A stretch of DNA of 63,294 nucleotides, filler included, from Anaerolineae bacterium (lineage in GTDB: Bacteria; Chloroflexota; Anaerolineae; Epilineales; Epilineaceae), in the NCBI GenBank assembly GCA_029262755.1. It is 6 parts of 6 records of this genome, joined end to end, with 100 filler letters (N's around TTAATTAATTAA, not from the genome) between each part and the next. Parts side by side here need not be neighbours in the genome. Positions count along the whole stretch, not along the records: positions 20,887 to 37,867 come from JAJCYU010000215.1; positions 37,968 to 48,965 come from JAJCYU010000216.1; positions 49,066 to 57,357 come from JAJCYU010000221.1; 3 more parts are not named here. The stretch is one strand, 5' to 3'. Positions 36,001-51,000 of the stretch are shown piece after piece. Position numbers: made by a program. How positions within the stretch are numbered: position 1 is the first letter of the stretch; each line of letters opens with the position of its first letter.

Positions 36001-39000
36001 GCGCCCGTGCTCGCGTCGTCGTCGGCGGAGATCAGCACGGCCGGGTCATCGTCTTCGCCCGGCGCCGGCGCACCGCGGGGCGGGATGGGCAGCGTGAACA
36101 CGCCCCACAAGAGCTGTGTGTGCGGTGATTCGGAGCGGCAGGCCGCGAACGCGACCTCTTCGCCGTCCGGCGCCACGTCGAAGGCGTTGCCTGGGTCCAT
36201 CCAAGGCAGCCAGCGCGTGGAGCCCGGCATGAGGTCGTGCAGATCGCCCGTGGCGGGGTCGAGCACGAAGAGGTGGTGGACGCTGCCTTCGGTCAGCCAG
36301 TGGTCCCAGAAGCGCACGACGCGATCCTCGCTGACCAGGGCTGTCACGGGATCGTCGGCGAGGGCCGCTTTGCGTGCCGCGGCGGCGGTGGGCGTGCGCG
36401 CGTCACGGTACACGGCCGCGGCGAGCACGAGCCGTCCGTCGGGTAGCCAACGTGCGCCGGCGACGCCGAGCGGAAGGTCGGTCACGCGCTCCGCTTCGCC
36501 GCCTTCGAGGGGCAGCACGTAGAGCTGGCGCTCATCGGGGTGGAGCGGCCCGGCCGCGCCTTCTTTGGCCGGATCGCCGCCCGGCTTGCGCAGGAAGGCA
36601 AGGTGTTGGCCGTCTCGGGAGAGGGAGGGCGCCGTGCTCGACGCGTCCTCGGCGGTCAGCGGTCGAGGCGTCGCGCTGCCGAGCAGGGCACGCGGCCGGT
36701 CGTCGCCTTCGACGACCGCGCTCGTTGCGACGTCGCCGGCAGGCACGTACCACAGCCGGGTCGTGCCCTTGTCGGCGACCGCGTCATGGGTCGTGACGGG
36801 TACGATGCACGCGGCGCCGTCCGGCAAGGGCAGGGGCGCCCCGACGCGTGGGATTTGCCACAGGCTTTCCGCGGTGAGGGGGGCAGACGTCACGGTGCGC
36901 TCCTGGGGCTATCGTCGGCGCCGGGCGGGGTTCGTACGATGGGGTCGACGCCTGCCGATCAGCACGGCCGCACGGCGATTCATACGAAGGATGTGCTGCG
37001 CCAGGCGAACCATCCGGAGGGGCACGGTGCGAGGCGCGTATAATCCCGGTGGGCGGCCGATTCTATCACAGCCGTCGAGCCCGAATTCACCGGAGAAGCG
37101 CCATGCGTCGTGACGAGCTCGTAACCTATCTCGATGACCTGCTGGACATCCATGGCATGGCCGACTACGGGCCGCAGGGCTTGCAGGTGGAGGGGCGCGG
37201 CACCGTCGAGCGCATCATCGGCCTCGTCGACGCGGCGCCGGCTTGTGTCGCGGCCGCCGTGGAGCACCAGGCCGACCTGATGCTCGTGCACCACGGCATA
37301 TTTTGGGGGCCGACCCAGCGGCTGGCCGGTCCCTTCGGGCGACACGTGCGCTCGATCGTCGAGAGCGGGATCAACCTCTACGCGGCCCACCTCGCGCTCG
37401 ATGGCCACCGCGTGTACGGCAACAACGCCGTGCTCGCCGAGCGGCTCGGTCTCACGGTCGTCGATTGGTGGGGCGTAACGGGAGGGCGGGAAAATGCCTT
37501 GGTGCTTGGAGACGTGGATGCCGATGGTTTCTTTGATCTGCTGGTCGAACGCCTAGCCAATTTGAACTGAACGACACCCGACAGAACGAGGTTTCAAATA
37601 TGACGGCACGGCGCGAGCTTTATCTTATCTCTGGTTCTCCTCCCTGTTGGACGGTCATGTTGGCGTTGGAGATGATGGGGTTGGAGTATCAACAGCGGCG
37701 GCTGGATAACGCCAAACGCGAACAGAAAAGTCCTGACTACTTGGCGATAAACCCGCGCGGTCAAGTCCCCACTTTGGTTGATGGCGACGTCACGGTTTCC
37801 GAGACTCTGGCCATTCTCGCTTATTTGGACACGGGCCATCCCGATGCGCCCCTTTTCGGCGGCGATGNNNNNNNNNNNNNNNNNNNNNNNNNNNNNNNNN
37901 NNNNNNNNNNNTTAATTAATTAANNNNNNNNNNNNNNNNNNNNNNNNNNNNNNNNNNNNNNNNNNNNTGGATCGAGGGCCGGATCGAGCGCAAAGACCCG
38001 CGAGTGCAACGCGACGTAGGCGCGCCGCTCGTCGGCGACGATCGGGCCGTAGCGTCCACCGTGCTCGAGGACCGGGGTTATCGGGGCAAGGGCGGGTTGC
38101 GCGGCGAGGGCGGCGGGCGCGGCGGCCGGGCGAGCGTGGGCGGTCTCGGCCGGGCGCGCGCGGGCGGGGACGGGTAGGTCGGTCCGGGTCGTTACGGCAG
38201 CAACCATGACGATGGATAGTGCGAGGAGCACCGGCATTCGAGTGAGTAGGCGATTCAGGATTGGAGTGATGCGCATGTTCGTATCCTCGCAAACGGCGCG
38301 TTCTACGACTCGTTCCGGGGCGCGCGCCTCGTGTAGCTAGTGACGCAACCGCGTGCCCATTCCGATCGACGACTTCGGTTCCCGAGACGACCGACCCCAC
38401 GGCTATGGGATGGCACGTTTGATGTAGGTTCGTGGCAGAAAGAGGAGCGTGTGTGGTGGATCATCGGTCGGGGTGCGCGTGGGACTTGGAGGCTTGGTCG
38501 GCCACGGGGTGGCCGGCGTGGTCGCGGCAGGTGGCGCCGACGTATGCGTCGGCGAAGGGCGCACGGTGGGCGTGGTGGACGGCGGCGGCAACGGCGTAGG
38601 CGCCGCCGCGTCGTAAGCTTGGATCGCCTGCGAACGGAGCCATACGTAGCCGGCGGATGACGTGAGGCGTCCGGTAGAACCGTCGAGGCGCACGACGGCC
38701 TCGTCCACGGGGGTGCGCGGATCGGAGATGTCGACCCGCCGGATACCGCCGTCGCCCGGCGCGCCGATCCAATGGACCCACATGTAGTCGCCGAGCGCCG
38801 TGACGTTGGTGATCGTCCCCGGCATGTCGAGCTCACTCAGTGGGCGAGGACTCGTGGGGTCGCGGCCGTCGATGATGAGCAGGTTTGTCACGTTGTGGAG
38901 AACAACCAGACCCCGATGGATCACGTCCGGCCCGCTTGCGCGAGGTGGCATCCGGATAGGCGGGCTACGTTCCTGTAGCGTATCGGAGTCGGTCACGATG

Positions 39001-48000: not shown

Positions 48001-51000
48001 GGACGTCGGCGACAAGCAGAGGCATGCGGGTGATACTCGGACGGGCATTGTCCGTCCGAAGCTCGTACACGCGCAGGTGATAGCCACCGGCAAGCAGCCA
48101 CCGGCCGCGAACGGCGAGTCCCGTGATGGGAGCGCCGACGGCGGGCGTGACGCTCCCGAGATCGCCGAGAGTCGTCAGCGCGGGATCGAGCGTGACGATC
48201 CGCGAGTGGATGGCCGCGTAGACAGCCCCGTCGTCCGCGGCGAGACCGCGGATGCGGCCGCCGAGCTCCGCGATCACGGCGGGCTGCGAGGCCACGGGGA
48301 GCTGGGCGGCGTACGCCGAGGGGCGATCCGCGAGCGCGATGGTGGATTGGAATCCCGCGGGCGCCGGCGCGTCGAGCGGACGGTCGACCGTAGTGGCGAG
48401 CGTGATGGCGATCGTGAGGACGGTTGCGATCGAGAAGGCGGTGGCGATCGTAAAGGCGGTGGCGACCGCGGGGACGGTGACGACCGCGCGGACGGCGATC
48501 ACTGCGGCGCGACGCACGCGCGCGCTATGAGCGCTCGCTCTCGGTTTACCGTGCAGCAACACGACCGGCGGTCCCGCGCCGGCGTCAAGGTCGGATAGGC
48601 ATGCCTTGGGCGCACATACGTACCGATGCTCGTACGGAAGTCCCGAGGACTTCGAGTGGGGCGTGCGGGAAGCGGCCGTAGGCGAGGGCATGGGCGGCTC
48701 CGTGGTCGGGACGGGACGCGAGGCTCGGGCGAATTGGCTCGGGCGGCGAGCGAGGAGTCGCATAGAGATCGCAGCCCACATCGCGCCTGCGCTTCGCTGC
48801 GCCGATGGTATCGGAACGCACGCGCCTTCGTGTCGCGTAGCCCGGTTGATGACAATGGCCGCGATCGCCCGGGTTCTAGATTACCGCTCTCCATGCCGGA
48901 CGCGCCGCAACACTTCCCCGGCCGCGATGAGCGCCACAGACACCATCAGCAGGTTCGCGACCAGANNNNNNNNNNNNNNNNNNNNNNNNNNNNNNNNNNN
49001 NNNNNNNNNTTAATTAATTAANNNNNNNNNNNNNNNNNNNNNNNNNNNNNNNNNNNNNNNNNNNNCAGCGTCGTGCTCTTCGACGAGGTCGAGAAGGCGC
49101 ACCCCGACGTGTTCAATACCTTGCTGCAGGTGCTCGACGACGGGCGCCTGACCGATAGCCAGGGGCGTGTGGTCAACTTCAAGAACACGATCTTGATCAT
49201 GACAAGCAACATCGGCTCGCATCGGATCCAGGAGCTCGGCGCCGAGGCAGCCAAGGAGCCGGTGCTCGAAGCGCTCCGTCAGCACTTTCGGCCCGAGTTC
49301 CTCAACCGCGTCGACGAGATCGTGGTCTTTCACGCGCTCGGGCGTGAGCACCTGGCGAAGATCGTGGGCTTGCAACTGCTGCGCCTCGCCCAGCGCCTCG
49401 CCGACCGAGGATTCGTCCTCGACGTCGAGGAGGCGGCACGCTTGGCCTTGGCCGAGGAAGGCTACGATCCGGCCTACGGGGCGCGGCCGCTCAAGCGCGT
49501 CATCCAGCGCCGGATCGGCAACCCGCTCGCGCTGGCCCTGCTGGAACGCGAGCTGGAGCCGGGGACGACGGTGCACGTATCCGCGCCTGCGACCGCGGAC
49601 GGCGCGTACGGCTTTCGCTTCGAGGCGCCGCCCGCCGGGCAGGCCGCGCCCAACGGGAGCGCAAACAACGGCGCGGATCAGGATAGTGCCGGAGGCGCGG
49701 AGCGCGTCGATCGAGCACCCGTGATCGAGGGCGAGATCGTCGACCCCTAGGGAGCCACGACCGGCCTGGAAGGCGTCGAAGAAACCGTTGCCCCGCCGCG
49801 CAGATTCGTCTCCGCGCGGCGGGGCGTCTTTGTGTATACTGATCGTGACGTCTTTTCATCGGCGGCGCGCGGTTCTTGTTGCGTCCTCGGCGTCAAGCGT
49901 ACTCGATCATCCATGGTTGTTGGGGGCCCGGGTCCACCGGGGACGCGAGGAGAAACGCATGAGTCGAATCAAGATCGGGCTGCTCGTCGGCCTGGGCGTA
50001 ATGGCAACGATCGGCGCCGGCATCTTCAGTCAAGGTGGCACGACGCCGCCCGACGTGGCGTTGGTTGAAGAGGTTGCCGAGATACCTGCGGAGCCGGAGG
50101 TCGTCGAGCCGGTCGTCGTGGAAGCCGAGCCGGAGCCGGTCGTCGCAGAGACCATGCCGTGGGTTGTCCATGCACCGCTCGCCGAGCCGGAGCTTTCGGT
50201 CGTGCGCGCCGGCGTTGGTCTCTATGAGGCGGATGCGGACGACGAGTCCGAGCCACGTGAGATCGTCGAAGCCGAGCAAGCACCGGTGCCAACCGGTGGC
50301 CGGGTGATCGTCCCGACGCGCGGCATGGCCGTGCTCGATTGGGGCGGCGCCCTGCGCAGCGAGCTGCTGCGCGCGGCCTCGATTACGGTCGGCGAGAGCG
50401 ATCTTGCGCAGCGCCGCGTCGTGGTGGATCAGGACGCGGGCACCGTGCGCTACCTGATGTCGATGCCGGGTGAAGACGGCCCCGTCGGCATGCGCGTCGC
50501 CGCGGGCCCCATCACGGTCGATAGCGATACCTCGGCCGGTGACATGGCCGACATCATGATCACGCACGTGCCCGATCCCGTGGCCGAAGACGGCGCAGAG
50601 AGCGATGACGGGCGCACCTGGGTCGTCGTGATCGCCGGCGCGGCCGATATCGACTTCGGCGGGCCCGTAGCGGCCGCCGGCGAAGCGGCCGGCGAGCGCT
50701 CGGTGCGGCTGGAGGCCGGCCAAGGCGCGGCCTTCGATCGCGGCGGCGCCGCCCCAACCGTTATGCCCATGGACGTCGTGGCCGTCGAGACCTGGTACGG
50801 CCAGATGCTCTCCGGCTACCGCGATTCCATCGCCGCCTTTGCCTTCCGCTGCGTGATCACGGCCGACGAGGTCGCCCTGCGCGACACGCCGCCCACAAGC
50901 GGGCGCATCCAGACCTCCGCAAACCCCGCAGCGCCGCGGGCCGCGACGCTGCTCTCCGGCGCGCTGATCAACATCACCCATCGCACCGAGGACGCGCGCT

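What a model noticed while it worked through the whole genome (the two positions that open the first line are those of the whole stretch)
38403..48691. One protein in twenty ends in an ultrashort C-terminal YLP box: a proteome-wide sorting-type signal on the cell-surface [...]
167 of 3358 proteins with a complete C-terminus (5%) end with [ILVA]-[YWFH]-L-P-x-[ALV]-x-R followed by 0-6 residues and the stop, usually after a Pro/Thr/Ala-rich linker and with no hydrophobic helix behind it. The box sits on about 30 unrelated families (LVIVD and other beta-propellers, subtilases, VWA, CotH, LTD, beta-helix, gingipain-like C25 peptidases, giant DUF11 adhesins) and on 80 proteins without any Pfam domain, e.g. 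the four paralogs that fill contig C216. It marks the secreted/surface proteome of this bacterium; the annotation model for the motif catches one of them.
Evidence so far: Regex [YWHF]LP + 3-11 residues to the end: 167 hits; the same regex 100 residues upstream of the end: 13, on reversed tails: 14. Residue counts (of 167): third before LP R 44; second before LP I/L/V/A 151; just before LP Y 66, W 49, F 31, H 17; second after LP A/L/V 113; fourth after LP R 74; distance LP-to-end peaks at 4 and 6 residues. P/T/S/A content of the 48 residues before the box 0.45 against 0.31 for all proteins; N-terminal hydrophobic stretch in 54% against 40%. NCBIfam NF053834 reached its cut on 1 gene only (g02819; call 66). 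No sortase, exosortase, rhomboid or CPBP protease gene lies next to YLP genes more often than chance.
(Added by a program. Inside this text positions count along the whole contig: they may not be those of the stretch shown here. "Call 12" and the like, gene names such as g00115 and contig names such as C1 are that model's own, and its searches are not shown. The text may have been shortened before it was handed on; [...] marks where a part breaks off. The agent that wrote the report below was given it as the finding of a first reader that could run no searches.)

Follow-up and report, generated by a model that had tools for sequence, protein, structure and literature searches.

The report
YLP box on exported proteins
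About one protein in twenty of this uncultured Chloroflexi-type bacterium carries an eight-residue "YLP box" that NCBI already lists as a putative sorting motif; it also sits at internal domain junctions, so it is not a simple C-terminal signal and its mechanism is still open.

Summary
With my own gene calls, 153 of 2791 complete proteins end in [YWHF]LP plus 3-11 residues, against 9-19 in controls. A stricter pattern gives 139, against 3-5. The four C216 paralogs all carry it. It is the NCBIfam "YLP-box putative sorting motif" (NF050076, NF053834); I found no paper on it.

Selection acts on the protein: all Leu and Pro codons are used. Carriers are mostly exported proteins from about 100 sequence families. 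Sortase and exosortase here have their own canonical substrates.

New here: the box is not only C-terminal. It lies just upstream of 51 of 59 last-position VWA domains, and of 40 of 44 database homologs. It also occurs after signal peptides and before a GH88 domain. AlphaFold leaves it outside the VWA fold. Frequency is 5-6% in two same-family genomes and 0-1.5% in eight more distant ones. Homologous Kelch propellers elsewhere carry T9SS-type C-terminal domains in the same slot.

Best reading: a position-independent tether or recognition motif acting after export. Its partner is unknown.

The parts
38403..40622 (-). Paralog 1, a distant LVIVD-like propeller (start uncertain). Variant C-terminal box at 38421-38444, with the basic residue displaced.
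   Evidence: ORF; alignment; box coordinates. No Pfam or NCBIfam hit on the protein itself. Homologs found with the 43029-45269 paralog carry LVIVD and Beta_propel.
40692..43004 (-). Paralog 2. Consensus C-terminal box at 40701-40724, followed by two residues and the stop.
43029..45269 (-). Paralog 3. Consensus C-terminal box at 43038-43061, followed by two residues and the stop.
   Evidence: Used as query.
46280..48781 (-). Paralog 4. C-terminal box at 46295-46318 that lacks the Arg.
10609..11988 (+). Kelch-type propeller gene on contig C212. The box at 11962-11985 is the last eight residues.
   Evidence: Pfam Kelch families; box.
12376..13815 (+). Kelch-type propeller gene on contig C212. 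P/T linker, then the box at 13780-13803, then three residues.
   Evidence: Query.
54107..54955 (-). 282-aa protein with no Pfam domain, on contig C221. The box at 54110-54133 is the last eight residues.
55343..56998 (-). Interior box at 56402-56425. The order is N-terminal hydrophobic anchor, about 140 aa of T/A/S/P-rich linker, the box, then a GH88 domain (residues 224-541).

Best explanation
The YLP box has the consensus aliphatic, aromatic, Leu, Pro, hydrophobic, Ala/Leu/Val, x, Arg/Lys, often followed by an acidic residue or the protein's end. I read it as a short linear motif that acts outside the cytoplasm. It serves as a tether or recognition point on exported proteins of this monoderm-type, Chloroflexi-like lineage.

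Proposed sequence of events:
1. The protein crosses the membrane by Sec or Tat, using its N-terminal signal.
2. The box, usually at the far end of a Pro/Thr-rich spacer, is bound as an exposed peptide by one shared envelope component.
3. That binding keeps the protein at the cell surface.

It needs neither a membrane helix nor a free C-terminus. The same box therefore works at a C-terminus, just after a signal peptide, or at the junction before a further domain, most often a disulfide-stapled VWA domain with an intact MIDAS site.

Shown: the motif and its enrichment; selection at the protein level; association with exported proteins; independence from sortase and exosortase substrates; the four placements; and that the box is not part of the VWA fold in the model.

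Inferred: that it is bound rather than cut, that binding is non-covalent, and that the result is surface retention. The partner is unknown.
For: Enrichment: 153 against 9-19 and 139 against 3-5.

Protein-level selection: all six Leu codons and all four Pro codons occur at the invariant positions. Leu codon use equals that of the 9035 other Leu-Pro pairs in the genome.

Export: of 122 strict carriers complete at both ends, 75% have an N-terminal hydrophobic 12-mer, against 40% of 2281 other proteins. Combined with no further membrane segment, the figures are 66% against 25%. Several carriers have N-termini that look twin-arginine-like by eye.

Diversity: the carriers fall into about 100 sequence families, 64 of them singletons.

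Spacer logic: 39% of carriers have a linker with at least 50% P/T/S/A before the box, against 5% of other proteins. A spacer that leads only to eight residues makes sense if those residues are the attachment point.

Position independence:
- The box lies upstream of 51 of 59 last VWA domains, against 5 of 47 other VWA domains. Chance is about 2% per window.
- A Cys follows at a fixed distance in 36 of 43 of these.
- The same holds in 40 of 44 database homologs.
- There are 11 boxes in the N-terminal region against 3.8 expected.
- P0004 has the box after its signal peptide, while P0003 has it at the C-terminus.
- The GH88 protein has the box between linker and enzyme domain.
- Homologous modules end either in box then stop, or in box then VWA: g1004 against g1608, 37% identity over 362 aa.

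Structure: the AlphaFold model has mean pLDDT 89.3, but the block holding the box scores 53 and has no secondary structure.

Same slot as a known sorting domain: 14 of 149 Kelch homologs end in the box or a close variant, and 102 have a CTD-like tail. Of 20 of those 102 scanned, 15 have FlgD_ig at the very end and 2 have Por_Secre_tail.

Envelope type: no Omp85 was found in 6 genomes, five of them 94-97% complete and G000 84%.
Against: - No receptor or enzyme was identified.
- No gene family is enriched near carrier genes. The best has z = 3.3, based on three genes.
- The neighbourhoods in genomes with few carriers showed no candidate.
- Eight residues is very short for stable docking.
- The conserved basic residue followed by an acidic or small residue is equally what a protease site looks like.
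- The N-terminal class rests on about ten proteins and on my own uncertain start calls.
- Of 147 tails aligned at the box, 34 end exactly at the +4 position that is usually Arg. This fits a binding motif, but could also mean a cut upstream of the box.
Confidence: 0.42

Rival explanations
1. The box is a processing site. A dedicated secreted or membrane endopeptidase, or a sortase-like transpeptidase, recognises the box wherever it lies and cuts in or next to it. This removes the short tail or the VWA or GH88 module, or releases the protein from its signal anchor. It may also attach the new end covalently to the wall.
For: The box always lies at a module boundary: passenger and tail, linker and VWA, linker and GH88, or signal and passenger. 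A conserved basic residue at a fixed distance is followed by E, D, G or N, which resembles P1 and P1' positions. What follows the box ranges from 0 residues to a whole domain, as expected of a leaving group. All known small C-terminal sorting signals are cut by endopeptidases (passages of 10.1101/2023.06.07.544157).
Against: Of 147 tails, 34 end exactly at the +4 position that is usually Arg, so nothing can be removed after it. For N-terminal boxes, a sortase-type reaction would attach the signal-peptide side and release the passenger. The VWA domain after the box keeps every MIDAS residue, which is unexpected for a discarded piece. Candidate enzymes did not hold up: sortase and exosortase have their own substrates, and a full-length C25 peptidase is missing from a carrier-rich 97%-complete genome.
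Confidence: 0.3
2. The box recruits a factor that acts on the neighbouring linker or on folding, not on localisation. Examples are a protein O-glycosyltransferase or a prolyl isomerase or foldase working as the chain leaves the translocon.
For: The box usually abuts a Pro/Thr-rich linker on one side, in all four placements. It has an invariant Pro preceded by an aromatic residue and Leu.
Against: Most carriers (61%) have no strongly P/T/S/A-rich stretch before the box. This reading does not explain why a long linker should end in nothing but the box. No such enzyme was linked to the motif.
Confidence: 0.1
3. The box acts in the cytoplasm. It is either a C-terminal degron that removes export-incompetent precursors, or a feature of translation termination.
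For: Most instances lie within 11 residues of the stop codon.
Against: The same box is conserved far from any stop codon, before VWA and GH88 domains and after signal peptides. Stop-codon usage of carriers is close to that of all genes.
Confidence: 0.04
4. It is not a functional protein motif but a DNA-level repeat, a compositional effect of high G+C content, or chance.
For: None beyond the low information content of the motif. The NCBIfam model rings in 10 of 14 unrelated control genomes when scanned in six frames.
Against: The motif is enriched 10- to 40-fold over shifted, reversed and shuffled controls. Codons are synonymous and diverse. Four different aromatic residues share one position. 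The motif is conserved in relatives and in database homologs.
Confidence: 0.01

Closest known systems
NCBIfam NF050076 (sort_motif_YLP) and NF053834 (ultrashort_CTERM), both described as 'YLP-box putative sorting motif-containing protein'
   Same: It is the same motif. The tail of the 1951-aa C237 protein scores 15.3 bits (cut-off 10) and 14 bits (cut-off 15). A tail from a same-order genome passes both models.
   Different: The models are 10-11 positions long. They reported 0 of the 7 window tails, and in six-frame scans they ring in 10 of 14 control genomes. Their names present the motif as a C-terminal signal. Here it is also internal, before VWA and GH88 domains, and N-terminal. I found no paper: 'YLP-box' gave 0 hits, and 'ultrashort' with 'CTERM' gave 0 hits.
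Tripartite C-terminal sorting signals and their enzymes: LPXTG/sortase, PEP-CTERM/exosortase, GlyGly-CTERM/rhombosortase, MYXO-CTERM/myxosortase
   Same: A short signature on many unrelated secreted proteins, often after a low-complexity linker, with a basic residue behind it. It occupies the slot that such signals occupy in homologs.
   Different: The defining hydrophobic helix and Arg cluster (passages of 10.1101/2023.06.07.544157) are absent. The box also works away from the C-terminus. This genome has canonical LPXTG and PEP-CTERM proteins alongside, with 2-3 sortases and one exosortase.
Type IX secretion C-terminal domains (Pfam Por_Secre_tail, FlgD_ig, CHU_C)
   Same: They occupy the same position at the end of homologous Kelch and LVIVD propellers in other lineages.
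   Different: They are folded domains of about 70-80 residues, found in bacteria with an outer membrane (recalled). Here the element is eight residues long and no Omp85 was found.
Non-covalent surface docking modules: dockerin-cohesin, and SLH domains binding wall polymers (recalled, not tested)
   Same: A module joined by a linker, at either end of diverse secreted enzymes, that fastens them to a common cell-surface scaffold. This is the working model that best fits the four placements.
   Different: Those modules are folded domains of 55-70 residues with known receptors. Here the element is a linear peptide and no receptor is known.
von Willebrand factor A domains with an N-to-C disulfide (for the domain after the box)
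   Same: Pfam VWA positions 1-172 of 174. The best Foldseek hit is vWF A3, 1fe8_C, E = 5.8e-13, target TM-score 0.81. The MIDAS residues are invariant and two Cys flank the domain.
   Different: The domain is preceded in fixed register by the YLP box, a combination I did not find described. The box was absent upstream of the best VWA homologs in 29 loci from other families of the phylum.

Membership tests
NCBIfam YLP-box motif (NF050076 / NF053834) | Score at or above the curated cut-off of the short HMM | tested here: inconclusive
   Met for the C237 tail with NF053834 (15.3 against 10) but not with NF050076 (14 against 15). Met for a G022 tail with both models. None of the 7 window tails was reported, because HMMER's filters drop such short matches.
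NCBIfam YLP-box motif (NF050076 / NF053834) | The consensus aliphatic, aromatic, Leu, Pro, x, small or aliphatic, x, Arg, near the C-terminus | tested here: met
   Logo from 153 tails. Two of the four C216 paralogs show the full consensus and two are variants.
Tripartite C-terminal sorting signals (LPXTG, PEP-CTERM and the like) | A hydrophobic transmembrane segment after the signature motif | tested here: not met
   At most 11 residues follow Leu-Pro. Canonical signals with a helix were found separately on other proteins.
Tripartite C-terminal sorting signals (LPXTG, PEP-CTERM and the like) | A cluster of basic residues at the extreme C-terminus | tested here: not met
   There is usually a single Arg or Lys, often followed by acidic or small residues.
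Tripartite C-terminal sorting signals (LPXTG, PEP-CTERM and the like) | A cognate sorting enzyme that co-occurs with the signal or is encoded nearby | tested here: not met
   No neighbour family is enriched. Sortase and exosortase have their own substrates. C25 peptidase is not consistently present.
Tripartite C-terminal sorting signals (LPXTG, PEP-CTERM and the like) | Location restricted to the C-terminus | tested here: not met
   The box is internal before VWA domains (51 of 59) and before GH88, and also lies after signal peptides.
Type IX secretion C-terminal domain | A folded C-terminal domain of about 70-80 residues matching Por_Secre_tail, FlgD_ig or CHU_C | tested here: not met
   No such Pfam match in the eight window proteins scanned. 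It is present in homologs from elsewhere.
VWA domain (the domain that follows internal boxes) | Pfam PF00092 match, MIDAS residues and the Rossmann-like fold | tested here: met
   All 6 proteins scanned match. D45, S47, S49 and D149 are invariant and T118 is nearly invariant. Model pLDDT is 89.3 and Foldseek finds vWF A3.

The most novel reading that the evidence does not exclude
The YLP box and the stapled VWA domain with an intact MIDAS site that so often follows it are two halves of a new docking system of monoderm Chloroflexota. It would be functionally like dockerin-cohesin, but with an eight-residue peptide. In this reading, box-bearing proteins are hung through their spacers onto VWA-type or other envelope receptors. 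Proteins carrying both box and VWA could chain head to tail into a surface network. The metal site would bind the acidic residue or free carboxylate that follows the Arg.
Probability: 0.12. Interest if true: 0.85.

Novelty: new variant of a known kind. Interest (0 to 1): 0.6.

Why it matters
Known prokaryotic surface-sorting signals need a membrane helix and a dedicated membrane protease. This is a signal of eight residues with neither. In one family-level lineage of Chloroflexi-type bacteria it is used by about 5% of all proteins.

These bacteria are filamentous or sediment and sludge organisms that are rarely cultured, and their envelope biology is poorly known.

Showing that the box also works internally and N-terminally changes the question. 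Instead of asking which sortase cuts it, one should ask what binds or cuts a linear peptide at linker ends.

It also gives a concrete experimental handle. The box-plus-VWA proteins are conserved across many metagenomes. In addition, the box offers a practical way to predict the surface and secreted proteome in these genomes, which current annotation models largely miss.

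Tried and rejected
1. DNA-pattern counting across genomes. I measured the range by fetching DNA and scanning translated gene ends instead.

2. Accession numbers next to the two NCBIfam models, hoping for a partner-enzyme model. They are unrelated: pilus_FilA, YaeR, PDIAV_lipo and Rv1352.

3. C25 (gingipain or PorU-like) peptidase as the universal processing enzyme. G000 has four copies. Three of their genes are among the tail hits. However, G013 is carrier-rich and 97% complete and has only a 26-bit partial match, and G039 has none.

4. Sortase or exosortase as an orphan enzyme. Both have canonical substrates.

5. Unbiased enrichment of gene families within three genes of carrier genes. Nothing convincing came up.

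6. Neighbourhoods of the few carriers in low-frequency genomes. No candidate appeared.

7. Complex prediction of the VWA domain without its own box, plus Mg, plus a 36-residue tail. The verdict was 'no answer', score 0.00. This is no evidence either way.

8. The box as a structural part of the VWA fold. The model does not support this.

9. A scan of genome contigs with the paralog alignment. It gave only two weak, unrelated loci.

11. A call asking NCBIfam about the exosortase and sortase loci failed because of a wrong reference, and I did not repeat it. The exosortase subtype was therefore not determined.

Full report
**What the window is.** The window joins six contigs of one assembly. Contig C216 is window 37968-48965. 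The genome is 5.06 Mb in 428 contigs, with 66.8% G+C and 84% completeness.

C216 holds four long minus-strand ORFs: 38403-40622, 40692-43004, 43029-45269 and 46280-48781. They are paralogs, 50, 26 and 23% identical to the third. They have no Pfam or NCBIfam match of their own. The few database relatives carry LVIVD and Beta_propel repeats, as do the nearest atlas clusters.

All four end in the box. Two match the full consensus, one has a displaced basic residue, and one lacks the Arg.

**Checking the observation.** No gene calls were supplied, so I built a crude caller and obtained 3277 genes, 2991 of them with a stop codon. The caller uses codon-usage log-odds with greedy selection of non-overlapping ORFs.

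- Among 2791 complete proteins of at least 120 aa it hit 153.
- Moving the end 20, 50 or 100 residues upstream gave 9, 19 and 14. Reversed tails gave 9. Shuffled tails gave a mean of 15.7.
- A stricter regex gave 139 of 2791, against 3, 5 and 3.
- So does the P/T/S/A content before the box: 0.454 against 0.313 overall.

**It is a protein motif, and a curated one.**
- At the invariant Leu all six codons occur, and at the invariant Pro all four.
- CTC appears under-used at the Leu. That is simply the genome-wide habit of Leu-Pro pairs: 5% in the box against 10% in 9035 other pairs.
- Four aromatic residues share the position before the Leu.
- The tail of a 1951-aa protein matches two NCBIfam models, NF053834 'ultrashort_CTERM' and NF050076 'sort_motif_YLP'. 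Both are described as 'YLP-box putative sorting motif-containing protein'.
- These models caught none of the seven tails in the window and one of four tails from relatives.
- In six-frame scans NF053834 rings in 10 of 14 control genomes.
- I found no paper. 'YLP-box' gave 0 papers, and 'ultrashort' with 'CTERM' gave 0. In the passages I read of Haft's 2023 preprint on sorting signals, the terms YLP, ultrashort and Chloroflex do not occur.

**Who carries it.**
- The 158 carriers fall into about 100 sequence families, 64 of them singletons.
- Of 122 strict carriers complete at both ends, 75% have an N-terminal hydrophobic stretch, against 40% of 2281 other proteins.
- 66% combine that stretch with no further membrane segment, against 25% of others.
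- Several of the apparent exceptions are my own truncated start calls. Several carriers have twin-arginine-like N-termini, judged by eye.
- Carriers in the window include two Kelch propellers and a protein with no known domain.

**What it is not.**
- The genome has one exosortase with an EpsI-like neighbour. It also has two or three sortases.
- It also has their canonical substrates. Four adjacent proteins carry SdrD_B-like domains and an LPXTG motif with helix and basic tail. One further protein has an LPXTG-like tail, with a Gram_pos_anchor match of 18.6 bits, below the cut-off of 20. One protein matches Pfam PEP-CTERM.
- No gene family is enriched within three genes of carriers.
- C25 peptidases, which could have played the PorU role, are not consistently present.
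- No Omp85 was found in G000 or in five relatives that are 94-97% complete. This suggests an envelope without an outer membrane.

**The new point: the box is not only C-terminal.** A scan for the eight-residue core away from the ends found 44 interior instances. About twenty of them share one architecture: module, P/T linker, box, then a C-terminal domain of about 200 residues.

- I built an HMM from that domain and found it throughout the proteome. Pfam identifies it as VWA.
- Of 59 VWA domains that are the last domain of their protein, 51 have a box within 35 residues upstream. Of 47 other VWA domains, 5 do. Chance is about 2%.
- The spacing is fixed: a Cys follows eight positions after the Leu in 36 of 43.
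- In an alignment of 18 such segments, the Leu and Pro of the box are invariant, like most MIDAS residues (one, T118, is nearly invariant). Two Cys flank the domain.
- Among 44 database homologs, some named by their sources as Chloroflexi, Ardenticatenales or Anaerolineae, 40 show the box before the last VWA domain. Two more have a Gly variant.
- The box was absent upstream of the best VWA homologs in 29 loci from other families of the phylum.
- AlphaFold models the domain well (mean pLDDT 89.3). The block holding the box scores 53 and has no secondary structure. The fold is that of vWF A3.

**Further placements.**
- About ten boxes lie 13-42 residues after an N-terminal signal-like stretch and are followed by a linker. 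The count in that region is 11 against 3.8 expected, Poisson P = 0.002.
- One database propeller has this arrangement, while another has the C-terminal one.
- Inside the window, the gene at 55343-56998 reads anchor, 140-residue linker, box, GH88 domain.
- Homologous modules end either in box then stop, or in box then VWA.
- The three classes share one logo, including a tendency to an acidic residue after the basic one.

**Range.** I sampled 200 kb from each of ten relatives and used the strict regex. Shifted controls were 0 in all ten, apart from a single control hit in G022.

| Genome | Relation | Strict hits / complete proteins |
|---|---|---|
| G008 | same family | 6 / 116 |
| G013 | same family | 7 / 113 |
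| G022 | same order | 1 / 115 |
| G025 | same order | 2 / 131 |
| G018 | same order | 0 / 138 |
| G039 | same class | 0 / 150 |
| G083 | same class | 0 / 172 |
| G134 | same class | 0 / 149 |
| G076 | same phylum, beyond the class | 1 / 139 |
| G099 | same phylum, beyond the class | 1 / 151 |

- One of the six G008 hits looks like a kinase tail.
- G039 has one clear variant that the strict pattern misses.
- The G076 hit is convincing and the G099 hit is doubtful.

The motif is therefore old and thinly spread in the phylum, and hugely expanded in this family.

**Comparative argument for a sorting or anchoring role.** I looked at the 149 best representatives related to one Kelch carrier.
- 14 end in the box or a close variant after a P/T linker.
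- 102 end in a tail typical of type IX C-terminal domains, judged by regex.
- I gave Pfam 20 of those 102. Fifteen have FlgD_ig at the very end (10 above the cut-off), two have Por_Secre_tail and one has CHU_C.
- Two LVIVD relatives show the same pattern.

**Mechanism.** Two readings remain.

I favour a tether or recognition motif that is bound as an exposed peptide by a shared envelope component (0.42). It explains why a long spacer can lead to nothing but the box. It also explains why the box works at either end or before a further domain, and why many proteins stop as soon as the motif is complete.

The main rival is a processing site for an unidentified endopeptidase or transpeptidase (0.30). 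It fits the module boundaries and the basic-then-acidic pair. It fits poorly with tails that end at the Arg, with N-terminal boxes, and with the fully conserved VWA domain behind the box.

Neither reading has a partner protein. The steps from recognition to surface retention are inference.

Noticed in passing
window 37974-38183 (C216:7-216), minus strand: The N-terminal part of a fifth paralog of the C216 family, cut off by the contig end. It matches alignment positions 77-151 with E = 5e-16.
   Followed up: partly
G000 contig C141:15141-15884 (locus L069): One exosortase-family gene (PF09721, E = 7.8e-40), followed by an ORF that looks EpsI-like by eye. Its likely substrate is a 941-aa propeller protein with a Pfam PEP-CTERM match on contig C307. 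The exosortase subtype was not determined.
   Followed up: partly
G000 contig C376:735-6584 (locus L187): Four adjacent genes encode proteins with SdrD_B-like domains. Each ends in an LPXTG-type motif, a helix and a basic tail. This looks like a pilus or adhesin cluster for the sortases on C9 and C281.
   Followed up: partly
G000, more than 50 genes, for example loci L077-L096: A very large paralogous family of secreted proteins. A first VWA domain appears to be inserted in a Cys-bracketed beta-sandwich, with a weak DUF11-repeat hit. A linker, the box and a second stapled VWA domain follow. A subgroup ends in a conserved Cys-Pro-x-Gly-Arg-His-Asp-Trp tail.
   Followed up: partly
G000 genes g1223 (C147), g3006 (C385), g1840 (C223), g1457 (C176): Carriers of the C-terminal box whose N-termini look like twin-arginine (Tat) signals. 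If so, the box serves both Sec and Tat substrates. This was judged by eye only.
   Followed up: no
G000 genes g1243 (C148), g2078 (C256) and a C241 gene; also a G008 gene in L033: Chance hits to the regex. They look like the end of histidine-kinase ATPase domains (Phe-x-hydrophobic-Trp-Leu-Pro) and account for part of the background. The domain label is recalled, not tested.
   Followed up: no
G025 locus L136:4730-8941: In a same-order genome with few carriers, two adjacent propeller genes both end in a consensus box.
   Followed up: partly
genome-wide (G000): The Leu codon CTC makes up 35% of all Leu codons but only 10% of Leu codons that precede Pro. This is a general codon-pair avoidance, not specific to the box.
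   Followed up: yes
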